A stretch of DNA of 64,000 nucleotides from an uncultured Gammaproteobacteria bacterium (GTDB taxonomy: Bacteria; Patescibacteriota; Patescibacteriia; UBA9934). Shown here piece by piece: positions 3,562 to 62,520 of this stretch. The position numbers and the translations under genes were made by a program. The notes beneath the pieces were generated by a model. It was not told the DNA's origin. It ran no database searches and saw only the letters and a program-made list of their open reading frames with translations. Numbering within the stretch: the first letter of the stretch is position 1; every line of letters starts with the position of its first letter. The stretch covers positions 21,803 to 85,802 of the forward strand of contig CAYJQH010000002.1 in the NCBI GenBank assembly GCA_964372415.1, written 5' to 3'.

Positions 3562-4383
3562 TTACTCTTCGAGGCAGAATGTCTGCTGTGATAAATAGGT
3601 GTTTTGGGCACCTCCTACCTTCTCTTCTGGAGCTTCATAGACGTTCGTCTCTACACAGTTACGATCGAGCCATCGAAGGTTATATGCGGTACCAGTTCCG
3701 CCGAGATCAGCTATCGCACCATAAAATACCTCGTCCGTCTCACCGATGACTTCGGTTTCGCCACTCAACAAGTCCAACACGACAAGCTGATTTCCGGTTT
3801 CAGAAACTGCTGCGTCCATATCATACGGAACAAAAGCGAGTTTAGTCTGGTCGGGAGAAACCTCAAAAGCATCCATAATGACGTATGAATCTTGAGCGAA
3901 ATCTACTAATTTCTGGTCTCCTTCAGTATTCAAGTTGAGTTCATGAAGTTGTAGAAACGGGTTATCGCCTTCTCCTACAAGATGGACAAAAACGCGCCCG
4001 TCGTAGCCCACCTGAGGAACTGCGACGACTTCAACAAAACCACCTATACCTGTTTCGAACACGGTGGTTTCACGACCGGTTTGACGATTGATGATTAAAA
4101 GTTGTTGACCGTATGGATAGCCACCTTCAAGCTTTTTGGTGTAAAGAAGTGGCGCTAACATTGGAGCCTCTTCACGTTGCTCTTGAAATTTAGCAATAGC
4201 TTGGCTTTGGGTTTTTTGGAGATTGGAGTATTGAACAATCACGTAACCAAGGGCGAGTGTCTCGAGGGCAAGAAGAAAAGCCAGGAGAGCCGTGACGATC
4301 GGGTGAATTCCCGAACGGTCAACGTGAATAGATGACGGTTGTTCAATCTCGACTGGCGTCGGTTTCATTTCCGGGTTGTCCAT
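3562..4383 (-). CDS. Hypothetical membrane-anchored protein
   Basis: ORF with one TM helix and a soluble domain of unknown function. The ORF track starts at a GTG at 4410, but an ATG at 4383 (MDNPEMKPT) lies just downstream of repeat element E1, so I prefer it. Confidence 0.5.
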   Translation of the reverse strand: MDNPEMKPTPVEIEQPSSIHVDRSGIHPIVTALLAFLLALETLALGYVIVQYSNLQKTQSQAIAKFQEQREEAPMLAPLLYTKKLEGGYPYGQQLLIINRQTGRETTVFETGIGGFVEVVAVPQVGYDGRVFVHLVGEGDNPFLQLHELNLNTEGDQKLVDFAQDSYVIMDAFEVSPDQTKLAFVPYDMDAAVSETGNQLVVLDLLSGETEVIGETDEVFYGAIADLGGTGTAYNLRWLDRNCVETNVYEAPEEKVGGAQNTYLSQQTFCLEE

Positions 4384-4404: not shown

Positions 4405-4492
4405 GCCCACTCTGAGAGACAGCGAAGAGTTAGGTTGGTTCGGCGAAAAAATTTCGTCTTACGACCTAACCCCTCACTTTAGTTCGGGGTGG
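4405..4492. repeat. Copy 1 of the 'E' intergenic repeat (…CGAAGAGTTAGGTTGG…CCTAACCCCTCACTTTAGTTCGGGGTGG)
   Basis: Near-identical 28-nt core shared with 8961-9033, and a related copy at 46055-46130. In all three loci it sits between two minus-strand genes, immediately 5' of the downstream gene's start. Confidence 0.7.
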
Positions 4493-4532
4493 ATTCAAAT
4501 AAATTTCAATCCAGTATACCAGCTGATGGCGG

Positions 4533-5978
4533 TTATGTTACACGTTTCTTCAAAAAGCGAATCGCTTGGTCACGAGTCGTGACCTTACCGTGGTCACGAG
4601 CTTCCTCTAGCATACGTTGCAACTCCCCCACTTTGGGCCCAGGTTCAAGTCCTAGAAGATCGATAATCTCGCCGCCCGTGAGGAGTGGGGTTTTTATGGA
4701 TTCGAGAAGGCTATTTTGAGCGACAGCTTGACGCATGACCTCACCGGGAAGGTACGGAGCGGTTGTCGCATCCTTAACTCCCCGACCACGAACGTCGGCC
4801 TCGGTGACTTTCAAATATACCTCGAATGACGTTTCGCCGAGTCGACGGAGCAGTCGACGCACTGCATACACGTAAGATTCGTCATTCAAGTGACCGAGTT
4901 GGAGTTCGCGATACAACATTGAAGGCTTAAGATGATCTTTAACGATTCTTACCACGGAATCCTCGATCTCCCGACCAAAAGTAAACTTTTTAAGCAAACT
5001 CCGCGTCGGCTTCTCGCCTGCCTCCTCGTGGCCACGCGAACGTATTCGACCATCAATAATTGCTGTCGTTGTTGCCTTGCCTAGGTCATGACACAAGGCG
5101 CCTAACATTACCGTGAGCTGGTCTTCGAGGGTCAACTGACGATCCAAAATTAGCTTTGCGGCCTGATCGATAACCATCAGGCTATGAGTCCAAACGTCCC
5201 CCTCGGGGTGCCATTCAGGTTCCTGGTCTGTAGTCTTTAGAACAAACAGTTCTGGATAATATTTTTCGATAATCCCCAAAGCCCACATCAAACGAAAACC
5301 CACCGAAGGTAGCGTGGCTTTCAACAAAAGCTTACGCCATTCGTCGCTCACTCGTTCTTTAGGTAATTCGTTTAGGTCACCACGTTCGATCATTTGTGTC
5401 ATGAGTGCGAATGTCTTGTCTTCAAGGGTAAAGCCGAGGCGAGCCGCAAGTTGAATACCGCGAAAAACCCGTAAGGGATCTTCCTGAAAAGTCGCCGTGT
5501 CAACAACTTGCAAAACTTTTGCTTCAAGGTGAACCTGACCCTGATAAGGGTCATGAAGAACTTCCGTTAGAGGATCAAGACTTATGGCATTGACCGTGAA
5601 GTCCCGCCGGCGAGCCGCCTCACGAAACGACATTTCGGGCGCGCTCTCGGTGACAAAGCCCCTGTGTCCCTTGCCAACTTTAGACTCTCGGCGCGGCGTG
5701 CCGATGTCTATTTCGTATTCATCTGAATACACTTTCAGAATCCCAAATGACGAACCAACAAGATCAACTCGCGGGAACATTTCTTTCACAACCGAGTGAA
5801 GCTTGTCGGGGTGAACGCCGTAAACTTCGAGGTCAATGTCTTTTACTTCTTTACCGAGCAGTCGATCGCGCACATAGCCGCCAACCAAAAGCGCCCGCGG
5901 AGTCACGGGTGCATAAGTAGCATCTGGCTCAAGCTCGGCGATGCGTTTGGCAAACTCGAGAATTGCTTTGGGAAACAT
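4533..5978 (-). CDS. cca: CCA-adding tRNA nucleotidyltransferase (class II, with HD domain)
   Basis: GGYVRDRLLG polymerase-beta head motif, then an HD domain (HDLGK); 481 aa. Confidence 0.85.
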   Translation of the reverse strand: MFPKAILEFAKRIAELEPDATYAPVTPRALLVGGYVRDRLLGKEVKDIDLEVYGVHPDKLHSVVKEMFPRVDLVGSSFGILKVYSDEYEIDIGTPRRESKVGKGHRGFVTESAPEMSFREAARRRDFTVNAISLDPLTEVLHDPYQGQVHLEAKVLQVVDTATFQEDPLRVFRGIQLAARLGFTLEDKTFALMTQMIERGDLNELPKERVSDEWRKLLLKATLPSVGFRLMWALGIIEKYYPELFVLKTTDQEPEWHPEGDVWTHSLMVIDQAAKLILDRQLTLEDQLTVMLGALCHDLGKATTTAIIDGRIRSRGHEEAGEKPTRSLLKKFTFGREIEDSVVRIVKDHLKPSMLYRELQLGHLNDESYVYAVRRLLRRLGETSFEVYLKVTEADVRGRGVKDATTAPYLPGEVMRQAVAQNSLLESIKTPLLTGGEIIDLLGLEPGPKVGELQRMLEEARDHGKVTTRDQAIRFLKKRVT

Positions 5979-8087: not shown

Positions 8088-8942
8088 TTAGCGTCGTTCA
8101 GCCAAGCGCAATTTTGCGCTGCGTGCGCGCGGGTTATCTTCAACCTCGTCGCGGCCAGGAACGATCGGTTTTTTGGTAATGGATAAAAGTCCCTTCTGCT
8201 CTTTGAGCCACAACTTCACTTGACGATCTTCGAGCGAATGGAAGCTGATAACAGCCAGCCTACCGCCCGGTGTCAAGACTTCACGCGCTGCCTCCAAACC
8301 CTTGGCCAGTTCGCCAAGCTCATCGTTTACAATCATGCGGAGAGCTTGAAAAACTTTGGTCGCTGGATGAATTTTGCCCCGGCGGGCCACGACCTCTTCA
8401 ATAACTTCTGCCAGCTGCTTCGTGCTTGTAATGCGATCTCGCCGTCTGGCTTCAAAAATAGCTTTGGCAATAATCGCTGCCTTAGGTTCTTCACCTAACT
8501 GACGAAAGAGCGTTGCCAGTTCCTCGCGCGACCAGCTGTTCACCACTTCTTCGGCAGTTAACGACTGTTGTATGTCGTAACGCATATCGAGCGGGCCATC
8601 GTTCATGAATGAAAAGCCTCGAGCTGGGTCATCCACATGAACCGAGGAAAATCCCAGGTCCAGGAGTACCGCTTGAGCTCTCGTTACATGATTCCTAATG
8701 TCAGCGAACGAAGCGTGGACGAGGGTTACTCGTTCGCCAAATTCCCGCAATCGCTCAGTGGCTAGTTCAAGATTCCTCGTATCACGATCAAAACCGATAA
8801 GTTTGCCGTCCGGAGCGATTTGCTCGAGCATAAGACTCGCGTGTCCGCCAAGTCCCACGGTGCCATCAATCACAGTCATACCTGGCTTCAGCTGAAGCCC
8901 TTCGAGAATCTCTTTTGCTAGAACCGGGATGTGTTGGGTCAT
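8088..8942 (-). CDS. rsmH: 16S rRNA (cytosine1402-N4)-methyltransferase RsmH (MraW)
   Basis: HIPVLAKEILEGL…GTVGLGGHAS matches RsmH. The ORF track start (8963) is a GTG that overlaps repeat E2, so I prefer the ATG at 8942 (MTQHIPVL). Confidence 0.85.
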   Translation of the reverse strand: MTQHIPVLAKEILEGLQLKPGMTVIDGTVGLGGHASLMLEQIAPDGKLIGFDRDTRNLELATERLREFGERVTLVHASFADIRNHVTRAQAVLLDLGFSSVHVDDPARGFSFMNDGPLDMRYDIQQSLTAEEVVNSWSREELATLFRQLGEEPKAAIIAKAIFEARRRDRITSTKQLAEVIEEVVARRGKIHPATKVFQALRMIVNDELGELAKGLEAAREVLTPGGRLAVISFHSLEDRQVKLWLKEQKGLLSITKKPIVPGRDEVEDNPRARSAKLRLAERR

Positions 8943-8960
8943 AAGGAAGAACAACGCTGC

Positions 8961-9033
8961 CACTCCGAGCGAATGCGAGGAGTTAGGTCGGCGTGCTGTT
9001 TGGGGAACTAACCCCTCACTTTCGTTCGGGGTG
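8961..9033. repeat. Copy 2 of the 'E' intergenic repeat
   Basis: CCACTCCGAGCGAATGCGAGGAGTTAGGTCGG…ACTAACCCCTCACTTTCGTTCGGGGTGG. Matches E1 at 26 of 28 positions in the core and E3 in the 5' half. Confidence 0.7.
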
Positions 9034-9049
9034 GCAAGTAAGGCGAACC

Positions 9050-9481
9050 TTAAATACCCATTCCTCCCAATTGTTCAGCGATCGCTGTTGAATCCTCCTC
9101 GGCCTGTTTGGCGTAAGCCTCCCAGGTCGTCTTGTCCCATAGTTCCAAACGCGTCTGAACACCGACCATGATCACTTCTTTCCGTAGTTTTGCGAACTCT
9201 CGCAAATACTCCGGCACAATAAACCTTCCTTGCTTATCAAGCTCAACAGCCATAGCGCCAGCGAGCATAAAGCGCGCAAAAGCCCTAGAGTTGGCTTGCC
9301 CCAGGGGCAAACTAGCAATTTTTTCGGCCAGTTTCCCCCACTCCTCTTTAGGGAGCAAGAAAAGTGAAGCGTCGAGACCCCGCGTCACAACTGCCCCGTT
9401 CGCGAAGGTCTCACGCAACTTCACCGGAACGGCGAGCCGCCCCTTATCGTCGATGGTGATTTGGTATTCGCCAATGAGCAT
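9050..9481 (-). CDS. mraZ: Transcriptional regulator MraZ
   Basis: 143 aa with two MraZ/SpoVT-AbrB repeats (DDKGRLAVP…; DKQGRFIVP…). Confidence 0.85.
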   Translation of the reverse strand: MLIGEYQITIDDKGRLAVPVKLRETFANGAVVTRGLDASLFLLPKEEWGKLAEKIASLPLGQANSRAFARFMLAGAMAVELDKQGRFIVPEYLREFAKLRKEVIMVGVQTRLELWDKTTWEAYAKQAEEDSTAIAEQLGGMGI

Positions 9482-9498
9482 AGCAGTGTGAATTCCAT

Positions 9499-9543
9499 GT
9501 CACGAGTAACCCATCGCCAAAGAGTTGACGGGTTACTCATGAC
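9499..9543. promoter_or_regulatory. 14-bp inverted repeat (GTCACGAGTAACCC-N17-GGGTTACTCATGAC) just upstream of mraZ
   Basis: Near-perfect inverted repeat (13 of 14) lying 18-62 nt upstream of the mraZ ATG on the minus strand. Candidate operator or promoter-embedded hairpin. Confidence 0.4.
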
Positions 9544-9809
9544 AAGGGGAAGTTTCCCGAAATTCGGACACCATTATTTGCTGCATGACTACGTTGCGGA
9601 ACTCAGATTTTTTCCTTCCGTACGGTTTAAGTACGCCTCAAAAAATCTTCCCCGCGCCTTGCCCTGCAGCAAATACTGGCGTCCTCTGTTGAACAACAGA
9701 ATAATCAGCACACCCCACTTTGTGCCGCTGAGCACCACTTTACACCATTATTTTACCAACCCAAACCAAAAACCACCTTTTCTGTGGATAAAATTTACTT
9801 TAACCTAAT

Positions 9810-24061: not shown

Positions 24062-24904
24062 TTAACCAAGATGATAACGACCGTGTTCAGCATCAGCCAC
24101 AATCTTGCCGTCATTTAAAGTAATAACTCGCTTACGAAGCCCATTCACGATATCTCTGTCGTGAGTCACAAGAACGATAGTTGTTCCTACCTCGTGGATG
24201 CGTTTAAAGAGCTCAAGAATATCACGAGCCGTCAAGGTATCGAGGTTTCCTGTCGGCTCATCAGCTATGATGATCTTTGGCCTGTGCACCAAGGCACGGG
24301 CCACTGAGACGCGTTGTTGTTCACCACCAGAAAGCTGTCTTGGGTAACGATGCAATTTATCAGCTAAACCAACGATCTTCATGACTTGCGGCACCACCTG
24401 CCTGATACGGCTCGTTGCTGCTCCGGCAACTTCCAAAGCAAAAGCTACGTTTTCGTAAGCGGTTTTTTTGGGTAATAGTTTATAGTCCTGAAAAACCACA
24501 CCAATCTGACGACGTAAAATTGGTACTTCGTGATACCTGAGACGTGAAATATCCCAATCCCCAACCGAAATCTGCCCATGGGTTGGCTGTTCTTCCGCAA
24601 AAAGAAGTTTAGCTAAAGTTGTTTTTCCGGATCCGCTCGTACCAACAATCGACACGAACTCGCCAGGTTTAATATGAAAACTTACGCCATCCAAAGCGCG
24701 CGTGTCTGGTTGGTAGATTTTACTCACGTTTTTAAACGTAATCACTCGGGCAGTATAGCATGTACGACCGTTGACTAAAAATGAATTTTCAACTAGACTG
24801 GGGCGTCGTTTCTTGGAGGTAATGTTGGATAACGACTCAGAGATCATTCTCGTGAAAAGCAAGTTCGGAGACCGTGAGATCTCCCGGGAAAACGTGGATT
24901 CCAT
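24062..24904 (-). CDS. ftsE: Cell division ATP-binding protein FtsE
   Basis: GTSGSGKTTL…LSGGEQQRVSVAR…[11 protein letters not shown]. The first ~50 aa of the ORF are probably not translated. A GTG at 24745 (VITFKNVSKIY) is the likelier start. Confidence 0.8.
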   Translation of the reverse strand: MESTFSREISRSPNLLFTRMISESLSNITSKKRRPSLVENSFLVNGRTCYTARVITFKNVSKIYQPDTRALDGVSFHIKPGEFVSIVGTSGSGKTTLAKLLFAEEQPTHGQISVGDWDISRLRYHEVPILRRQIGVVFQDYKLLPKKTAYENVAFALEVAGAATSRIRQVVPQVMKIVGLADKLHRYPRQLSGGEQQRVSVARALVHRPKIIIADEPTGNLDTLTARDILELFKRIHEVGTTIVLVTHDRDIVNGLRKRVITLNDGKIVADAEHGRYHLG

Positions 24905-25976
24905 TCTGGATACGCGGATTTTCCGGATTGTCGGTAAGCGGGAGTGGGTGGTAAAGAGCGGTTTCTACGACCGGCCCTTCATCTGCTACAACCGCAGTCA
25001 AGATAGGCACCATGCCTACCAAAACCCGCACACCGCATTTCGAGCCACGGTTTACGCCGATGGCTTCGAGGGGTACGGCGCCGACGACATTCCGGAAGGC
25101 GACCTGCAAAAGCTCAAGGCCTGGCTCGAGCGTCACCGCTACCTGCAGCTCCTTGTGTCCGACGACATGATGCGCGGGCCGGAGCGGGCCATGTTCAACA
25201 GGCTGTGCATCGAGCTCGCGACCAAGATGGGTCGGCCGGTGAACGAGGTCAAACGCGAAATCCTGACTCAGACCATCATTGCCGCCACCCTTGAGGGTGA
25301 AGCGGCAGTCGAGAGCTTGGGCGAGACGATCGGGCTTGATCGGCGACGGATTGCAGAAATCACCGCCATCGGTCGAAACGTCAACTGGCACGGGGCCCTC
25401 ATCGTGCGTGAGATCAGAGAACAAGAAGATCTCATGACGGCCTGCGGCGCCGAGCTGAGCGCCCTTCTCGAAGCCCGTTCAACGCTCTTCGACGACGCGG
25501 CCAGACGCGAAAGTCACCTGAGGAACGTCAAAAACATCGCAACGCTCCTCGGCACGATCAAGGACCGCCCATGGCGAAGCCTGGCACAACGCGACATTCA
25601 GGACCTCGAACAGTACGTCGGCTATGGCTCAACGGGTGTCGAAGCCCTGATCCAGGCCGAACTCTTCCTCCGTCGACCGGTAGCCGCGCACAAGTGCTTC
25701 TACCTGTCGCGCCAGATCAACGTAGTGCTCTATCGGCTGGCCATGGCCGAAGCGAGACAAGGCAACATCCGCTCCGCTCTCCTTGATCGGGGCTACGCCG
25801 AACTCGTCGCCATTCGGGACTCCATCGATCCCGCGACGGGCGAAATCCTGCAGCGCAACCCGCTCTGGAGCGCCCTCGGTCGCATCAACGATGCGCTCCA
25901 TATCTGGCGTGCGAGCAGCAGCCACTTCGAGGACGTTCGCAACCTCCTCCGCCACGCCGCTGCCACGTTCGGCTAG
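24771..25976 (+). CDS. GC-rich hypothetical protein (401 aa), no recognisable domain
   Basis: Long ORF whose codon usage shifts to high GC after about 24880. Followed by a strong terminator. Its start overlaps the dubious N-terminal extension of ftsE on the other strand. Confidence 0.5.
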   Translation: MTKNEFSTRLGRRFLEVMLDNDSEIILVKSKFGDREISRENVDSILDTRIFRIVGKREWVVKSGFYDRPFICYNRSQDRHHAYQNPHTAFRATVYADGFEGYGADDIPEGDLQKLKAWLERHRYLQLLVSDDMMRGPERAMFNRLCIELATKMGRPVNEVKREILTQTIIAATLEGEAAVESLGETIGLDRRRIAEITAIGRNVNWHGALIVREIREQEDLMTACGAELSALLEARSTLFDDAARRESHLRNVKNIATLLGTIKDRPWRSLAQRDIQDLEQYVGYGSTGVEALIQAELFLRRPVAAHKCFYLSRQINVVLYRLAMAEARQGNIRSALLDRGYAELVAIRDSIDPATGEILQRNPLWSALGRINDALHIWRASSSHFEDVRNLLRHAAATFG

Positions 25977-25984
25977 GCATCTCC

Positions 25985-26017
25985 CGGCTCGGACCCCTTG
26001 GTCCGAGCTGCTTTTTA
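25985..26017 (+). terminator. Rho-independent terminator of the 401-aa gene
   Basis: GCTCGGACC-CCTT-GGTCCGAGC followed by TGCTTTTT. Confidence 0.7.
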
Positions 26018-26034
26018 TGTTCGACCTCCCCTCA

Positions 26035-26100
26035 CCCCTCCTTCTTAAGGAGGGGACTGCTCACTGTTTCACCCTTTATAAGGGGGAATGAAGGGGGTCG
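26035..26100. repeat. GC-rich palindromic hairpin element (CCCCTCCTTCTTAAGGAGGGG … CCCTTTATAAGGG … GGGGGAATGAAGGGGG)
   Basis: A near-identical CCCCCTCCATTTATGGAGGGGG…GGGGGTTGGGGGAGG element is found at 62405-62440. Both lie just beyond the terminator of a GC-rich gene. Confidence 0.6.
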
Positions 26101-26107
26101 AACACAA

Positions 26108-26135
26108 AAAGCACATGCCTTCTGGCACGTGCTTT
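26108..26135. terminator. Bidirectional terminator hairpin (GCACATGCC-TTCT-GGCACGTGC, A-run on one side, T-run on the other)
   Basis: Serves the plus-strand 401-aa gene region and the minus-strand tRNA-Thr. Confidence 0.6.
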
Positions 26136-26211
26136 TGGAGCCACTTCCGGGATTTGAACCCGGGACCTCTGCTTTACGAAAGCATTGCTCTACCGCTGAG
26201 CTAAAGTGGCC
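26136..26211 (-). tRNA. tRNA-Thr (anticodon CGT), CCA encoded
   Basis: Reverse complement is GGCCACTTTAGCTCAGCGGTAGAGC…TTCGTAA…GGTCCCGGGTTCAAATCCCGGAAGTGGCTCCA. Confidence 0.85.
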
Positions 26212-26230
26212 TAGAAAACGTATAACCAAA

Positions 26231-26259
26231 TTATCGACCATGAGAAAACTGATTTAAAC
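26231..26259 (-). promoter_or_regulatory. Candidate promoter of tRNA-Thr (TTTAAA-17-GATAAT on the minus strand)
   Basis: Read directly from the sequence. The promoter-proximal sequence TTGGTTATACGTTTTCTA resembles the 3' end of the tRNA-abutting element copies. Confidence 0.35.
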
Positions 26260-26276
26260 GGCCAAATACTAAAAAC

Positions 26277-26369
26277 AGCGAGGAGCGAAGTGAGGCGTAG
26301 TTAATACTACGGTGAACGAGCACCGGAGTCGCGACAACGCAGTTGGTTATTTGAATCAGTTTTTTGTAC
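26277..26369 (+). ncRNA. Conserved tRNA-abutting element, copy 3 (plus strand, ending at the 3' CCA end of the minus-strand tRNA-Gly)
   Basis: AGCGAGGAGCGAAGTGAGGCGTAGTTAATACTACGGTGAACGAGCACCGGAGTCGCGACAACG…TTGGTTA…TTTTTTGTAC. The hairpin carries compensatory changes relative to copies 1 and 2. Confidence 0.45.
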
Positions 26370-26444
26370 TGGAGCAGGAGACGGGACTCGAACCCGCGAC
26401 CCTTTGCTTGGGAAGCAAATGTTCTACCACTGAACTACTCCTGC
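26370..26444 (-). tRNA. tRNA-Gly (anticodon CCC), CCA encoded
   Basis: Reverse complement is GCAGGAGTAGTTCAGTGGTAGAAC…TTCCCAA…GGGTCGCGGGTTCGAGTCCCGTCTCCTGCTCCA. Confidence 0.85.
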
Positions 26445-26593
26445 GTTTTAAGCGCAAAATATATAGCACGATTTTACTATCCAGTCTAGACTAAGTCTCG
26501 GGTTTCTGCTAACCTTTAGCCGCATCGTGATCCCCATGATGCATCAAGCCAACCCTTTCCACTACAGCGCTCCCCGCGCTGAGCGGAGAGTCC

Positions 26594-29814: not shown

Positions 29815-29819
29815 AGCCG

Positions 29820-29883
29820 GTTAGCCGGTTTGCCGATTAGCGGCGCGGATGGTTCTAACCGGCTAATCGACTAATCGACTTTA
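29820..29883. repeat. 8-nt periodic repeats in both orientations (CCGGTTAG/CCGGTTTG/CCGATTAG … TAACCGGC/TAATCGAC/TAATCGAC), forming a 9-bp inverted repeat
   Basis: GCCGGTTAG…CTAACCGGC inverted repeat plus direct octamer repeats. Lies between murD and murE. Confidence 0.55.
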
Positions 29884-31345: not shown

Positions 31346-31384
31346 CAAGACCCAGGACTCAAGACTCTAGACTCTAGAGTCTCG
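31346..31384. repeat. Heptamer tandem array (CAAGACC CAGGACT CAAGACT CTAGACT CTAGAGT CTCG) containing the palindrome GACTCTAGAGTC
   Basis: Member of the CTAGACT/AGTCTAG family. Lies between the P-type ATPase stop and the murD start. Confidence 0.7.
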
Positions 31385-31397
31385 TGGTTGGTAATGG

Positions 31398-39027: not shown

Positions 39028-39090
39028 TTTCCACCTTGACGGAATCCGTGCCTTCCGCTACTCTGTACGCTATTAACCGAGAGCCAAACA

Positions 39091-39208
39091 TTAGACTCTA
39101 GATCCTAGACTCTAGACGCAAGTATCTAATATTGCGTCTTTGACGTCTTGTACGTCGCGATGGAGCGAGTCTAGAATCTAGGGTCTCGAGTCTTGAGTCT
39201 TGAGTCTC
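39091..39208. repeat. Large inverted array of heptamers. Left arm TAGACT CTAGATC CTAGACT CTAGAC, ~50-nt core with its own GACGCAA…TTGCGTC hairpin, right arm AGTCTAG AATCTAG GGTCTCG AGTCTTG AGTCTTG AGTCTC
   Basis: Arms are reverse complements built from the CTAGACT unit. Lies between the divergent nfu and rpmA genes and ends 4 nt before the rpmA ATG. Confidence 0.75.
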
Positions 39209-39212
39209 TTCT

Positions 39213-39485
39213 ATGGCACATAAATTAGCCCAGGGTTCAACGCGAAATGGCCGCGATTCGCAGGCCAAGCGACTCGGCGTTAAGCGCGCCGATGGCCAGG
39301 TTGTTAAAACCGGTCAAATTATTGTTCGCCAGCGCGGCACTAAAATCCATCCGTCTAAAAACGTTAGCGCCGGTAAAGACTTTACACTTTTCGCCATGAA
39401 AGATGGCAAGGTAAAGTTCAACACCAAAAAAACACCGAACTTCATTGGTAAACTCCAGGTACGAACTTTCGTCTCAGTGGTTTAA
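39213..39485 (+). CDS. rpmA: 50S ribosomal protein L27
   Basis: [25 protein letters not shown]…; 90 aa. Confidence 0.95.
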
Positions 39486-44219: not shown

Positions 44220-45203
44220 TTGATATGCTTCGCAAAATTTATGCACCGCGTTGTCCGAAAATTTCTCTTCGCCTTTTTTGTGGCCGTGTTTGTGGTGGCA
44301 ACACCACTTGTTATTTTGTATACCGCTGGTTACCGGCTCAATATTACCAGTCGTCGCGTACTCCAAACAGGAGTGATTGCGATCACCACCTCTCCTAGGG
44401 GAGCAAGTATTTATCTGGATAACACGCTAATAAACGACAAAACTCCGCTCGTCATTCAACGACTGGCACCTAAAACTTACGAGTTACAATTCGAAAAAAA
44501 TGGTTATCACACCTGGGAACAGCGGGTGGAGGTGCGCGAAGGTGTGACCACTTACGTCACCGCCCGACTCTTTGCTGCTTCAGAGCCAACTCCCCTAGCG
44601 TTAAGTGAAGCTCGTGAGCTATTAGCCGAACACGATAAAGATTCACAATTACCCGCTATCCCGGACGATATTCAGTTGCTTGATAAACGAGTCCAAGTTG
44701 AAGTTTGGCGCCAAACTGATGAAGAGAGCGTGCTCATCGGCATTCTCCCGCCAGGCGTCTACACCTTACTCTACGACGACGGAGAGTATCTGCTATTTGA
44801 GACTGAAAGTCGTGCCGCATTTGTGGTGTCGCGAGCCGGAAACAATGTGACCACGCTGTCACCAAACATGGGGGCGTTCTCCTGGCTTGATGACACCCAC
44901 AGCTTACTTTGGACAGACGGCACCGAAGTGGCTCTTTTTGAAGCTTCGACTGGCGAACGGTTAACCATCACTAGGCTCGGTGAGCCCATCATTAATGTGG
45001 CCTGGCACCCTTCTGGCGATACTCTCTTCTACGCCACTAACCGCTCCCTTCTTGCCGCCTCACGGGAACAGTACGACACGCGTCCGACGACGCTTCTTGT
45101 TGACGGGGTGACGATCAACGATTTTTGGCTGGCTGAAAACGGTAAAGAACTGTACCTAGCCACCGGTCCACAAGCCATCTCTACCCTGTCACTCACCGAG
45201 TAA
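44220..45203 (+). CDS. Membrane-anchored PEGA-domain protein
   Basis: TM helix followed by a PEGA-like segment (ITTSPRGASIYLDNTLINDKTPLV…KNGYHTWEQRVEV…) and a beta-rich C-terminal region. Confidence 0.55.
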   Translation: MICFAKFMHRVVRKFLFAFFVAVFVVATPLVILYTAGYRLNITSRRVLQTGVIAITTSPRGASIYLDNTLINDKTPLVIQRLAPKTYELQFEKNGYHTWEQRVEVREGVTTYVTARLFAASEPTPLALSEARELLAEHDKDSQLPAIPDDIQLLDKRVQVEVWRQTDEESVLIGILPPGVYTLLYDDGEYLLFETESRAAFVVSRAGNNVTTLSPNMGAFSWLDDTHSLLWTDGTEVALFEASTGERLTITRLGEPIINVAWHPSGDTLFYATNRSLLAASREQYDTRPTTLLVDGVTINDFWLAENGKELYLATGPQAISTLSLTE

Positions 45204-46043
45204 GTAGGCGCGAAGCGCTAACTGACGGTGACGCAATTTGGGAAATTTAGTATTTTGCAAAGCCGCAAACTTTGGTCTTTTGGCTGGTTTAGGAAACTCA
45301 TCTGAGGCCACTCTTTTTCGCGGAGTTTTAATCTCAAGAAGTGTAAAAACTTCCTCGGCAAACTCATACCAGGTAACGCCTTCGCCGTCGTTTACTAAAT
45401 GATAAACGCCCGGCGCATACCCCTCGGTCACCAGTCGGTAAGTGGCAAGCGCCAAGTCCGGCGTATAAGTTGGGCAGCCAACTTCTTCGTTCACAATTGA
45501 AAGCTCTGGTTTGCTCGCGGCCAGACGCGCGATAAGATCAACAAAACTTTCTTTGCTGTCTTCGGTTAATCCTCTTTTACCAAAAAGACGCGAAGTGCGA
45601 ACGATATATATCTTGCCCCCCACCTCGCTTACTAATTTTTCGCCCAAATGTTTAGTTTCACCGTATTTAGAAATCGGTCGCGGCTCGTCGGTTTCTAAGT
45701 AGCCCTCTGGTTTATTACCAGAAAAAACATAGTCGGTGCTGAAGTGAACCAGGGGCACACCAAGCACCTTTGCAATCTCTGCTAAATACTGGGGCCCGAG
45801 CGCGTTTATGGCATAAGCTACAGGAAAGACCGTGGCCTCTTCGATTTTATCAACTGCATTAAACGCTGCGCAGTTAATAATCAATTCTGGTTGCAATTCT
45901 GCCACTTTATTGAGCACTTGATCGTGATTGGTAATATCCAAATCGCCCTGAGTCCAAGCCACCACGTCGTGCCCCTGACTTGAAAAAACTTTAATAATAT
46001 CTTGTCCAAGTGACCCTAGAGCTCCGGTGATTAAGACTTTCAT
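45189..46043 (-). CDS. rfbD: dTDP-4-dehydrorhamnose reductase
   Basis: MKVLITGALGSLG Rossmann motif and the YxxxK family. The ORF-track start (GTG at 46058) overlaps repeat E3, so I prefer the ATG at 46043. Confidence 0.85.
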   Translation of the reverse strand: MKVLITGALGSLGQDIIKVFSSQGHDVVAWTQGDLDITNHDQVLNKVAELQPELIINCAAFNAVDKIEEATVFPVAYAINALGPQYLAEIAKVLGVPLVHFSTDYVFSGNKPEGYLETDEPRPISKYGETKHLGEKLVSEVGGKIYIVRTSRLFGKRGLTEDSKESFVDLIARLAASKPELSIVNEEVGCPTYTPDLALATYRLVTEGYAPGVYHLVNDGEGVTWYEFAEEVFTLLEIKTPRKRVASDEFPKPAKRPKFAALQNTKFPKLRHRQLALRAYLLGE

Positions 46044-46054
46044 AATCCGTTTGT

Positions 46055-46130
46055 CCACTCCGAGTGAATACGAGGAGTTAGGTTGGTGCGGCGTCGTTCC
46101 TCCAAGACCCCTCGCATTCGCTCAGGGTGG
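46055..46130. repeat. Copy 3 (divergent) of the 'E' intergenic repeat
   Basis: CCACTCCGAGTGAATACGAGGAGTTAGGTTGGTGCGGCG…GACCCCTCGCATTCGCTCAGGGTGG. The 5' half is nearly identical to E2. Confidence 0.6.
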
Positions 46131-46139
46131 CTGACAGAG

Positions 46140-46685
46140 TTAGAACGGCAGGTTAAGCACCGACAGTCGCGGCGCGGCGGCGTCACGTGCCGAAAGAATC
46201 GGCGGCTGACCCTGAAGCAGAGGCCAGTTAATAGCGAGCTCAGGATCATTCCAAGCCACGTTGGCATCCGCGGCTTTATCGAATGTTTCGGTACATTTAT
46301 ACACCACTTCAGCGTCCTCAAAGGTATAAAAACCATGTCCAAAGCCGGGTGGCACCCACAACATTCTTTTGTTGGCAGCCGTTAGCTCAAGGCCAAACCA
46401 TTGTTTATAGGTTGGTGAGGCCTTACGCAGGTCGACGGCCATGTCCCAAATGCGCCCCCGCGTACAACGCACAAGCTTGCCCATCGCTTTTGGCGGCAAT
46501 TGAAAATGAATTCCGCGGAGCACACCCTTAACTGAAAACGAATGGTTGTCTTGTGAAAAATTAGTGGGCAGCCCTAAAGCGGCAAATTTATCGGCGTTAA
46601 ATGATTCATAAAAAAATCCTCGGTCATCTCCAAAGACCTCCGGTTCGATGATCAACAAACCCTCAAGGGGGTGAAGGGCCTTCAT
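46140..46685 (-). CDS. rfbC: dTDP-4-dehydrorhamnose 3,5-epimerase
   Basis: …DDRGFFYESFN…RGIHFQ…; cupin fold, 181 aa. Confidence 0.9.
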   Translation of the reverse strand: MKALHPLEGLLIIEPEVFGDDRGFFYESFNADKFAALGLPTNFSQDNHSFSVKGVLRGIHFQLPPKAMGKLVRCTRGRIWDMAVDLRKASPTYKQWFGLELTAANKRMLWVPPGFGHGFYTFEDAEVVYKCTETFDKAADANVAWNDPELAINWPLLQGQPPILSARDAAAPRLSVLNLPF

Positions 46686-57653: not shown

Positions 57654-58320
57654 TGCGCTTTTTTAGCATATCAAACACGCTCAACATTGCTTTAAGCGTA
57701 GTTTGGCCCTTCGCGAGCGAAGTAATTGAGTAACGAATAGTTACCGGCACCTCCACGTAACGTAACCTTTTTGCCACGATGAGATCCAAAATTTCTGAAG
57801 CGTGAGCCATGCGGTCGAGAGTAATTTCAATCTCCTGCGCTGCCTTACGAGATAAGGCACGAAAACCGTTGTGACTATCGGTTACCCGAATGCCTGAAAA
57901 AAACATGGTAAACAGTGTGCCAACTTTAAGCATGAGGCGTCTAAACCACGGCATGTTAATCGCTTCTTTACCTAAAAATCGCGAGCCTAAAACCACGTCC
58001 GCACGTCCCATGATGATTGGCTCAAGGAGCGTTGGTATCTCCTGTCCCTCCATTTGGCCGTCGGCGTCAAAATGAACAATGATCTCAGCGTCTAAATTTT
58101 TGAGGGCAAAAATCTTGCCGGTCTCGAGCGCCGCGCCTTGTCCACGATTAATTATGTGACGCAGTACCATAGCCCCAGCCTGGCGCGCTGCGTCACTTGT
58201 TGCATCAAGACTGCCGTCATCAACGACTACCACATGATTAACAAAAAGTTTGGCGTCAGCCACCGCTTTCGCTACTCTAGATGCTTCATTGTACGCGGCT
58301 ATGATCGCAACTGATCGCAT
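57643..58320 (-). CDS. GT2 polyprenyl-phosphate glycosyltransferase (DPM1/GtrB-like)
   Basis: …IIAAYNEASRV…VVVDDGSLD…GQGAALETG…HFDADGQ… The ATG at 58320 is preferred. The ORF-track start at 58341 is a TTG that lies inside the heptamer repeat. Confidence 0.8.
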   Translation of the reverse strand: MRSVAIIAAYNEASRVAKAVADAKLFVNHVVVVDDGSLDATSDAARQAGAMVLRHIINRGQGAALETGKIFALKNLDAEIIVHFDADGQMEGQEIPTLLEPIIMGRADVVLGSRFLGKEAINMPWFRRLMLKVGTLFTMFFSGIRVTDSHNGFRALSRKAAQEIEITLDRMAHASEILDLIVAKRLRYVEVPVTIRYSITSLAKGQTTLKAMLSVFDMLKKRIVG

Positions 58321-58325
58321 AAAAT

Positions 58326-58398
58326 AAGACCCGAGACTCAAGACTCAAGTTGGCACAACTGGCCATTTTTACCACTTGGGTCTTGGGTCTGGGGTCTC
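58326..58398. repeat. Inverted heptamer array (AAGACCC GAGACT CAAGACT CAAG … CTTGGGT CTTGGGT CTGGGGT CTC)
   Basis: Reverse-complementary arms around a 27-nt spacer. Lies between the epimerase stop and the GT2 start. Confidence 0.7.
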
Positions 58399-61527: not shown

Positions 61528-61554
61528 ACCGGGACATTATACCGTATCCAAGCA

Positions 61555-61648
61555 CTAGACTCTAAACCCTAGACTCTAAAAAATTACCAAAAAACAGGTT
61601 CTTCTTGAGCTACTTGAGGCTTGAATCTAGGGTCTTGGATCTAGAGTC
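61555..61648. repeat. Inverted heptamer array (CTAGACT CTAAACC CTAGACT CTAAA … TTGAATC TAGGGTC TTGGATC TAGAGTC)
   Basis: Same CTAGACT/AGTCTAG family. Lies between the TPR-protein stop and the protease start. Confidence 0.7.
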
Positions 61649-62404: not shown

Positions 62405-62476
62405 CCCCCTCCATTTATGGAGGGGGTTGGGGGAGGTTAAAACCAAACACCCCGGCCCTTGCGAGCACGGGGTGTT
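62405..62476 (-). terminator. GC hairpin element (CCCCCTCCATTTATGGAGGGGG) plus a rho-independent terminator (ACACCCCG…CGGGGTGT, then a T-run on the minus strand)
   Basis: Lies just 3' of the GC-rich surface-protein gene. The first hairpin is a near-copy of the one at 26035. Confidence 0.6.
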
Positions 62477-62520
62477 TGTTGCTCCCGGAGCTTGCGCCCC
62501 GAGTCAGGTAACCGCCGTCA

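What the first reader, a model, noticed from the sequence alone, without database searches (positions are those of the whole stretch)
8961..9033. 'E' element: a ~75-nt repeat in the 5' regions of three unrelated genes (hypothetical at 3562, rsmH, rfbD)
Copies at 4405-4492, 8961-9033 and 46055-46130 all lie between two minus-strand genes, directly abutting the start of the downstream gene. They share CCACTC(C/T)GAG…CGA(A/G)GAGTTAGGT(T/C)GG … (A)CCTAACCCCTCACTTT(A/C)GTTCGGGGTGG.

The two halves are partly self-complementary (GTTAGGT/ACCTAAC), so the mRNA could form a hairpin just upstream of the RBS. The ORF-track GTG starts of all three genes fall inside the repeat, which argues for the downstream ATG starts.

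The element may be a mobile promoter/UTR module (MITE- or REP-like) or a shared translational control structure.
Basis: seen in the sequence. Interest (0 to 1): 0.6.

Follow-up and report, generated by a model that had tools for sequence, protein, structure and literature searches.

The report
Dispersed hairpin repeat between operon genes
A 75-86-base hairpin-forming DNA repeat has inserted itself between neighbouring genes at three places in this small groundwater-type (Patescibacteria) genome; it looks like a new family of the small, probably mobile, palindromic repeats known from other bacteria, not a shared gene switch.

Summary
Three copies (9034..8960, 4492..4407, 46130..46055, all read on the - strand) share two conserved ~29-nt arms (73-93% identical). 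The spacers are unrelated and 17-28 nt long.

Each copy lies in a short spacer inside an apparent operon: mraZ-[E]-rsmH, CCA/polyA polymerase-[E]-membrane protein, rmlC-[E]-rmlD. Each is 9-40 nt after a stop codon and 11-23 nt before the next ATG, in one orientation.

The host is an Uhrbacteria-like Patescibacterium. In syntenic relatives all three sites lack E, with spacers of 1-9 nt in most and 48-145 nt in three. E was not found in about 220 kb of related DNA, apart from same-species contigs. One rearranged copy lies in a more distant groundwater Patescibacterium, and that site is also empty in its close relatives.

E has no Rfam match, no promoter or terminator consensus, no covariation signal and no flanking target duplication. 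No transposase is encoded in the window.

Best reading: a new lineage-restricted family of REPIN/MITE-like palindromic repeats, co-transcribed as an intercistronic hairpin. It is a new member of a known kind, of moderate-to-low interest. Genome-wide copy number and the mobilising enzyme could not be tested.

The parts
8960..9034 (-). E1, 75 nt, between mraZ (9050..9481) and rsmH (8088..8942). Arm A is 9034..9005, the spacer about 17 nt, arm B 8988..8960. It starts 15 nt after the mraZ stop and ends 17 nt before the rsmH ATG.
   Evidence: Sequence. Pattern hits against zero in shuffles. Hairpin -42.2 kcal/mol, z -6.8. CM 90.2 bits. Flanking genes by Pfam. Spacer is only 4-5 nt in L007 and L012.
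4407..4492 (-). E2, 86 nt, between the CCA-adding/polyA polymerase gene (4533..5978) and a conserved hypothetical membrane protein gene (3562..4383). Its spacer is 11 nt longer and forms its own mini-hairpin. It starts 40 nt after the stop and ends 23 nt before the ATG.
   Evidence: Sequence. Hairpin -33.0 kcal/mol, z -3.6. CM 81.8 bits. The orthologous spacer is 9 nt in L011 and 7 nt in L012. Start codon fixed by orthologue alignment. A promoter-like site at 4541..4513 lies just upstream of the element, outside it.
46055..46130 (-). E3, 76 nt, between rmlC (46140..46685) and rmlD (45189..46043). It starts 9 nt after the stop and ends 11 nt before the ATG.
   Evidence: Sequence. Hairpin -39.1 kcal/mol, z -4.2. 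CM 87.9 bits. Pfam for the flanks. The orthologous spacer is 48 nt without E in L014-L016 (RmlD 79% identical) and 1 nt in L017.

Best explanation
E is a new, lineage-restricted family of small non-coding palindromic repeats with REPIN/MITE-like architecture. Two conserved ~29-nt arms lie in inverted orientation around a free-to-vary spacer.

Shown: copies were inserted recently into short spacers between co-oriented genes of an Uhrbacteria-like Patescibacterium, because orthologous sites in relatives lack the element. All copies have the same orientation relative to both transcription and replication.

Inferred: the copies were spread in trans by a transposase or recombinase encoded outside this window. 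The most likely candidate is an enzyme that acts on single-stranded hairpin DNA, as RAYT/IS200-IS605 enzymes do, which would fit the missing target-site duplication and the strand bias. The elements are probably co-transcribed with the flanking genes and fold into a ~29-pair imperfect RNA hairpin between cistrons. Like REP, ERIC and Correia elements, such a hairpin could act as a 3'-exonuclease block or an RNase III-type processing site and shift the relative stability of the two cistrons. No gene-specific regulatory role is required. They persist where a hairpin without a U-tract is tolerated.
For: Three copies share sharp common boundaries and unrelated flanks. Arms are 73-93% identical while spacers are 25-46% identical and differ in length. 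This matches the published REPIN description: two inverted REPs, variable spacer, hairpin retained (PMC3337134). The full-length hairpin forms on both strands.

Insertion polarity is supported at every site. The mraZ-rsmH spacer is 5 nt in L007 and 4 nt in L012/L013. The polymerase-hypothetical spacer is 9 and 7 nt in L011 and L012. The rmlC-rmlD spacer is 1 nt in L017, and 48 nt without E in L014-L016.

The distribution is patchy. No E was found in about 220 kb of related Patescibacteria loci by HMM or CM. One rearranged copy occurs in a more distant groundwater Patescibacterium, L003 6008-6121: arm B and the apical stem are intact and an inverted solo arm A is present. Its own 89% relatives have a 5-nt spacer there; its 95% relative (L018) has an extra gene after nfo and a 100-nt spacer before the DUF167 gene that holds no E.

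The three short-read contigs of the same species that reach an E copy all stop inside it. GC skew is uniformly negative on the + strand, so orientation is also fixed relative to replication.
Against: Only three full copies and one rearranged copy could be examined, so genome-wide copy number is unknown. The strict arm pattern had no match in 185,579 species-representative genomes and only one in the metagenome collection. No transposase, RAYT or other Y1-HUH gene is in the window. No target-site duplication or common target motif flanks the copies. Each arm on its own is only a weak palindrome, -1.6 to -4.5 kcal/mol, unlike classical REPs. The window spacers are 20-63 nt longer than E itself, so more than the 75-nt core differs from the empty sites. 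No transcript data exist, so any RNA-level effect is inference.
Confidence: 0.68

Rival explanations
1. Host-selected intercistronic RNA hairpin. The element is kept, or was recruited, because a long stem between cistrons is useful, for example as an RNase III processing site or as a 3'-end stabiliser for the upstream cistron. Mobility is secondary.
For: All copies are in the sense orientation in spacers inside operons, close behind a stop codon. The mraZ-rsmH spacer carries three unrelated long hairpins in three lineages: E in the window, a 112-nt insert in L008 and a 145-nt insert of -51.6 kcal/mol in L011. Other spacers of the window also hold long hairpins. Correia elements are reported to bind or be cut by RNase III (abstract of PMC2649163).
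Against: Other relatives have 1-9 nt spacers at the same junctions and evidently need no hairpin. Sense and antisense folds are equally stable, so there is no G-U asymmetry favouring the mRNA strand. There is no covariation above shuffled controls. Orientation is confounded with replication direction.
Confidence: 0.17
2. A shared cis-regulatory 5'-UTR structure (translational control, riboswitch-like or protein-binding) that co-regulates rsmH, rmlD and the hypothetical gene.
For: The stem ends 11-23 nt before each start codon, and the same arm faces the start codon in every copy.
Against: The downstream genes are functionally unrelated. The element is absent at all three sites in relatives. 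The apical spacer, where a ligand or protein site would be expected, is not conserved. Rfam gives only sub-threshold generic hairpin (miRNA-precursor) matches. The stem does not include the start codon or a Shine-Dalgarno sequence.
Confidence: 0.06
3. A mobile promoter or an intrinsic terminator module that rewires transcription at its insertion sites.
For: Some known small repeats create promoters at their ends (Correia, per the abstract of PMC2649163). E is a strong GC-containing stem directly after stop codons.
Against: There is no -35/-10 match inside any copy, and the only promoter-like site near a copy (4541..4513) lies outside E2. No U/T tract follows the stem, and no terminator-like call coincides with the full hairpin. 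A terminator between mraZ and rsmH, or between rmlC and rmlD, would cut off genes that are adjacent or overlapping in relatives.
Confidence: 0.05
4. An integron attC-like recombination site that marks gene cassettes.
For: It is an imperfect palindrome of attC-like length between co-oriented genes. The motifs GTTAGGT and ACCTAAC fit the attC core (GTTRRRY) and inverse core (RYYYAAC) consensus as I recall them. Conserved mismatches occur in the stem.
Against: The two motifs sit at the apical end of the stem in the order GTT...AAC, not at the base in the order AAC...GTT. The flanking genes are conserved syntenic housekeeping genes, not cassettes. No integrase is in the window.
Confidence: 0.02

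Closest known systems
REPINs (REP doublets forming hairpins), mobilised by RAYT transposases, in Pseudomonas and Enterobacteria (PMC3337134, PMC3116915)
   Same: Two conserved short units in inverted orientation. The spacer varies in length and sequence but the hairpin is kept. Size is similar (E 75-86 nt; a GI REPIN is 89 bp). Location is extragenic. No target duplication. Solo or rearranged units occur as remnants, as with the inverted arm in L003.
   Different: There is no sequence similarity. Each E arm alone is only a weak palindrome. No RAYT gene was seen, though only 64 kb was available. REPIN populations are described as long-lived and vertically inherited, whereas E is missing from relatives at 74-79% protein identity. 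The host is a reduced Patescibacteria genome, a group for which my two literature searches found no report of such repeats.
Bacterial MITEs such as Correia/CREE (Neisseria) and ERIC/IRU (enterobacteria) (PMC2649163, PMC2229807, PMC10969869)
   Same: Small, non-coding, with terminal inverted repeats. Presence/absence polymorphism between relatives. Often co-transcribed with neighbouring genes as a long hairpin that can affect mRNA processing.
   Different: E has no detectable target-site duplication (Correia duplicates TA, from my own knowledge). It is shorter than Correia or ERIC, has no promoter-like ends, and no parent insertion sequence with matching ends is known.
Classical REP/BIME elements of E. 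coli as intercistronic mRNA stabilisers (my own knowledge: Newbury et al. 1987 and later work)
   Same: Located inside operons just after stop codons. A stem-loop without a U-tract. Plausible 3'-exonuclease barrier.
   Different: REP units are 20-40 nt and occur in hundreds of copies with gyrase, IHF or Pol I binding. None of this is tested for E.

Membership tests
REPIN / REP-RAYT system | Two conserved short units in inverted orientation separated by a variable spacer, the whole forming a hairpin | tested here: met
   Arms are 73-93% identical and spacers 25-46% identical with different lengths. The stem has 29 pairs with 84% of cells paired. Folds are -33 to -45 kcal/mol.
REPIN / REP-RAYT system | Each unit (REP) is itself a short imperfect palindrome | tested here: inconclusive
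   Each arm has only a 4-5 bp closing inverted repeat (ACYCC...GGRGT). Single-arm DNA folds are -1.6 to -4.5 kcal/mol, z -0.3 to -2.1.
REPIN / REP-RAYT system | A cognate single-copy RAYT (Y1 HUH transposase) gene flanked by the repeats | not testable with these tools
   None was found among the window ORFs scanned against Pfam. The rest of the source genome could not be fetched.
REPIN / REP-RAYT system | Tens to hundreds of extragenic copies per genome, persisting in related lineages | tested here: inconclusive
   All copies are extragenic, at 3 per 64 kb. Genome-wide number is unknown. E is absent from about 220 kb of related loci and from the syntenic sites, which argues against long vertical persistence.
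MITE (transposase-dependent miniature inverted-repeat element) | Terminal inverted repeats at sharp element boundaries | tested here: met
   The ends are CCACCC...GAGTGG, and the alignment loses all similarity immediately outside them.
MITE (transposase-dependent miniature inverted-repeat element) | Target-site duplication flanking each copy | tested here: not met
   The flanks are TTG|..|CAG, AAT|..|GCT and CAG|..|ACA. There is no direct repeat and no common target.
MITE (transposase-dependent miniature inverted-repeat element) | Presence/absence polymorphism (empty sites) in relatives | tested here: met
   All three window sites and the L003 site lack E in relatives.
MITE (transposase-dependent miniature inverted-repeat element) | A parent insertion sequence with the same ends in the genome | not testable with these tools
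   No transposase is in the window, and the remaining genome is unavailable.
Integron attC site | RYYYAAC at the 5' base and GTTRRRY at the 3' base of the hairpin, within cassette arrays next to intI | tested here: not met
   The motifs are present but apical and in reverse order. The flanking genes are syntenic housekeeping genes. No integrase is in the window.
Intrinsic (Rho-independent) terminator | GC-rich stem followed directly by a U/T tract | tested here: not met
   No terminator-like call matches the full hairpin, and no T-run follows it (sequence).
Any curated RNA family (Rfam 15) | Score at or above the family gathering threshold | tested here: not met
   Only tRNAs reach threshold in the window. 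Permissive scans of E1 and E3 give 12-22-bit generic miRNA-hairpin matches against thresholds of 58-90 bits.

The most novel reading that the evidence does not exclude
Patescibacteria (CPR) genomes, usually regarded as streamlined and poor in repeats, may carry lineage-specific families of hairpin elements that repeatedly colonise the same stop-codon-proximal spacers inside essential operons. The mraZ-rsmH junction holds three unrelated long hairpins in three lineages and almost no spacer in two others. These elements may be moved by a mechanism other than the known RAYT/IS routes, or be recurrently selected as intercistronic RNA processing signals. E would be the first recognisable multi-copy family of such a class.
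Probability: 0.12. Interest if true: 0.6.

Novelty: new member of a known kind. Interest (0 to 1): 0.33.

Why it matters
If confirmed genome-wide, E would document an active or recently active small palindromic repeat family in an ultra-small Candidate Phyla Radiation genome. It would give a marker for strain and lineage typing. It would also give a natural test of how a 29-pair hairpin dropped between tightly coupled cistrons (mraZ-rsmH, rmlC-rmlD) affects operon expression. In practice it explains why automatic gene callers extend three genes to GTG starts inside the repeat, and why short-read assemblies of this organism break at these points. It does not reveal a new regulatory principle.

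Tried and rejected
1. Exact arm-pattern scan of 185,579 species genomes gave 0 hits. The source genome and close relatives are not in that set. The second genome scan, with RsmH, returned only 33-35% identical proteins from unrelated phyla (L004-L006), which was useless.

2. Viral-contig scans: the right arm gave 0 hits. The left arm gave 2 hits (L009, L010) that lie in coding sequence without a partner arm, so they were rejected as chance.

3. Fetching the source contig failed. The exact RsmH protein is listed (P0001, 109-kb NCBI contig) but is not retrievable, so no genome-wide census was possible.

4. Covariation was tested with three copies. One double change was seen and there was no excess over shuffles, so the test is uninformative.

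5. The CM hit L003 5919-6043 looked like a second full element. Its distal arm is conserved Nfo coding sequence that is also present in relatives lacking the insert, so I regard it as a coincidental pairing partner.

6. I first read the fact that two Logan contigs end exactly 30 nt (k-1 for k=31, my recollection of the Logan pipeline) into E1 as evidence of another identical copy. A third contig ends 21 nt into E3, which that argument does not explain. I keep it only as 'assemblies break inside E'.

7. The hypothetical gene next to E2 as a transposase or cargo: it is a membrane-anchored protein with orthologues at the same position in relatives without E. Rejected.

8. The inserts at the mraZ-rsmH spacer of L008 and L011 as diverged E copies: no HMM, CM or BLAST similarity, and no second copy in the 15-16 kb available.

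9. Literature: two searches found no paper linking CPR/Patescibacteria with MITEs or REPs in a relevant way.

Full report
**Observation**

The three claimed copies are present. On the minus strand, which is the strand of all flanking genes, they read:
- E1, 9034..8960, 75 nt
- E2, 4492..4407, 86 nt
- E3, 46130..46055, 76 nt

. A degenerate pattern for the left arm hits exactly these three sites. The 23-nt right-arm core hits two of them. No hits occurred in 100 dinucleotide-preserving shuffles. A profile HMM and a covariance model built from the copies find nothing else in the 64-kb window. Similarity stops abruptly at CCACCC... and ...GAGTGG, and the flanks do not align.

**Anatomy**

In fact the whole element is an imperfect palindrome.
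- Arm A is CCACCCCGAACGAAAGTGAGGGGTTAG. Arm B is CCTAACTCCTCGCATTCGCTCGGAGTGG. They pair over 29 positions.
- 84% of pair-cells are standard pairs, against 33-45% when partners are slid by 1-3 columns.
- RNA folds are -42.2, -33.0 and -39.1 kcal/mol on the sense strand, with z -6.8, -3.6 and -4.2. They are equally good on the antisense strand. DNA folds give the same hairpin.
- Arms are 73-93% identical between copies. The spacers between them are 25-46% identical and differ in length. E2 has an 11-nt longer spacer with its own mini-hairpin.
- Some asymmetries are shared by all copies: a C.A mismatch at pair 5 and a G.U at pair 22. The copies therefore descend from one asymmetric ancestor.
- Three sequences give no covariation signal, with one double change and no excess over shuffles. 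This says nothing either way about selection on structure.

**Context**

Pfam identifies the neighbours:
- mraZ-[E1]-rsmH-ftsL-like
- CCA-adding/polyA polymerase-[E2]-hypothetical membrane protein-PAP2
- rmlB-rmlC-[E3]-rmlD

Each element starts 15, 40 or 9 nt after the upstream stop codon. Each ends 17, 23 or 11 nt before the downstream ATG.

The GTG starts of the mechanical ORF list lie inside the repeat. The ATG starts are the real ones:
- The database proteins identical to RsmH and RmlD are 284 aa.
- The Pfam domains begin at residue 1-2.
- Orthologues of the hypothetical protein align from the ATG at 4383.

Other checks were negative:
- No sigma-70-like promoter pair and no stem-plus-T-tract terminator coincides with any copy. 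The only promoter-like site nearby (4541..4513) lies upstream of E2, outside it.
- Rfam has no family for E. Permissive scans return only generic long-hairpin (miRNA precursor) matches far below threshold.
- No transposase, integrase or Y1-HUH protein is encoded in the window.

**Host and relatives**

RsmH and RmlD homologues place the window in Patescibacteria, close to 'Candidatus Uhrbacteria'. The source genome itself could not be fetched. It is also not among the species-representative genomes. Syntenic loci of relatives were retrieved through their proteins.

*Site 1, mraZ-rsmH.* The spacer is 5 nt in L007 (RsmH 74% identical) and 4 nt in L012/L013 (69%). L008 (74%) has a 112-nt insert and L011 (68%) a 145-nt insert at the same junction. 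Both are long hairpins with no similarity to E.

*Site 2, polymerase-hypothetical.* The spacer is 9 nt in L011 and 7 nt in L012. The hypothetical gene is missing altogether in L007 and L008.

*Site 3, rmlC-rmlD.* The spacer is 48 nt without E in L014-L016 (RmlD 79%) and 1 nt in L017 (63%).

So all three sites lack E in every relative sampled. Neither the HMM nor the covariance model finds E anywhere in about 220 kb of related loci. The only exceptions are three short Logan contigs of the same species, identified by identical MraZ or RmlC. All three stop inside the element: 30 and 30 nt into E1, and 21 nt into E3. This is the behaviour expected of repeats or hairpins in short-read assembly, but it is not proof of further copies.

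**A copy elsewhere**

The strict arm-B pattern has one match in the metagenome collection: L003, a Hainich groundwater contig. One chance match is not excluded by the pattern alone; my rough estimate is on the order of one chance match or fewer. Several features argue that it is real:
- It is intergenic, between co-oriented genes (nfo and a DUF167 gene).
- It ends 11 nt before the ATG, in the same orientation.
- It agrees with E at several unconstrained positions.
- It retains the apical stem (GAAGGATTAG...CCTAACTCTTC).
- It is preceded by an arm-A sequence in inverted orientation.

It does not fold into one clean hairpin (z -0.3), so it is a rearranged copy. L003 is also a Patescibacterium. 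Its Nfo is 89% identical to one (P0243) whose longest listed contig has the same length, 874,264 bp, as that of an RsmH (P0009) only 67% identical to the window's. If these are one contig, L003's lineage is more distant than relatives that lack E. In its own 89% relatives the nfo-DUF167 spacer is 5 nt; in the 95% relative L018 an extra 204-aa gene follows nfo and the 100-nt spacer before the DUF167 gene holds no E. The distribution is thus patchy and the insertions are young. That is the signature of a mobile or recently mobile element rather than of a conserved regulatory RNA.

**Mechanism**

Shown: a multi-copy palindromic unit with conserved arms and a free spacer; insertion relative to empty sites; uniform orientation; no promoter or terminator consensus.

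Inferred:

(i) Spread in trans by an enzyme encoded outside the window. Two observations fit the RAYT/IS200-IS605 style of transposition, which acts on single-stranded hairpins on the lagging-strand template (family properties from PMC3337134 and my own knowledge). These are the lack of target duplication and the fixed orientation relative to a uniformly negative GC skew. The enzyme was not found, and orientation is confounded with transcription, because nearly all genes in the window are on one strand.

(ii) Co-transcription as an intercistronic hairpin. Like REP, ERIC or Correia elements, it may block 3' exonucleases or be cut by RNase III (the Correia/RNase III link is from the abstract of PMC2649163). 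No transcript data are available.

**Rivals**

A dedicated shared translational control element is unlikely. The regulated genes are unrelated, relatives do without it, the apical region is not conserved, and the stem does not cover the start codon.

Promoter and terminator readings fail their consensus tests. A terminator would also sever operons that are contiguous in relatives.

The attC resemblance (GTTAGGT and ACCTAAC fit the core and inverse-core consensus) fails on position and order of the motifs and on gene content.

A host-selected processing hairpin remains possible. It is the main alternative, and it is compatible with a mobile origin. The recurrence of unrelated hairpins at the mraZ-rsmH junction in three lineages is the best argument for it.

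**Comparison and novelty**

Architecturally E is closest to REPINs. The published description matches: two inverted conserved units, a spacer of variable length and sequence, hairpin retained, about 89 bp, and solo units as remnants.

Membership cannot be claimed. The cognate RAYT is untested. Each arm alone is only a weak palindrome. The family does not persist across related lineages.

As a MITE it meets the terminal-repeat and empty-site criteria but fails the target-duplication criterion.

There is no sequence relationship to any described family. Two literature searches found no report of such repeats in CPR/Patescibacteria.

I therefore rate it a new member of a known kind: small dispersed palindromic repeats. 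Interest is moderate to low. The host group and the operon-internal hot spot are the only mildly surprising aspects.

**Limits**

Only 64 kb of the source genome was available, with three full copies. Copy number, the mobilising enzyme and transcription remain untested.

Noticed in passing
window 31346-31391, 39084-39213, 58318-58349, 61548-61648; L008 11186-11261: A second intergenic repeat family is built from 7-nt units (AGACTCT / AGAGTCT) arranged as inverted arrays that form hairpins. There are 16 near-matches to AGACTCTAGAGTCT in the window against 1.5 expected. One copy lies in the relative L008. Unlike E, this family is shared between lineages.
   Followed up: partly
L008 9889-10000; L011 9856-10000: The mraZ-rsmH spacer carries long hairpin inserts unrelated to E and to each other in two relatives (-28 and -51.6 kcal/mol). 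It is only 4-5 nt in L007 and L012. This is either an apparent hot spot for hairpin insertion or a recurrent selection for a hairpin at this junction.
   Followed up: partly
window 9482-9809: The 328-nt region upstream of mraZ folds into two long, near-perfect hairpins, with arms at 9495-9515/9527-9547 and 9566-9585/9665-9684. Energies are -46 and -61 kcal/mol, z -5.4 and -6.7. No function is assigned.
   Followed up: no
window 29815-29883 and 62447-62520: Two further short spacers have strong structure. One is a hairpin made of GATTAG/CTAATC-type heptamers between two Mur ligase genes (z -3.6). The other is a double GC-rich hairpin (z -2.9).
   Followed up: no
window 3562-4383; L011 14326-15132; L012 4908-5711: The fast-evolving membrane-anchored hypothetical protein downstream of E2 is conserved in position in L011 and L012 (38-39% identity). 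It has been lost in L007 and L008, where the polymerase gene runs straight into PAP2.
   Followed up: yes
L007 9376-9430 and 9531-9585: An exact 55-nt direct repeat, with its second copy overlapping the mraZ start, occurs in the relative GCA_964644265.1.
   Followed up: no
window 24905-26515: This 1.6-kb stretch has no Pfam-recognisable gene. It holds two tRNA genes (26139-26210, 26373-26444) and a 401-aa plus-strand ORF (24771-25976) without family matches.
   Followed up: no
L001 1662-1691, L002 1193-1222, L024 2023-2043: All three short-read (Logan) contigs of the same species that reach an E copy terminate inside it. Two independent samples end at exactly 30 nt into E1 and one ends at 21 nt into E3.
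   Followed up: partly
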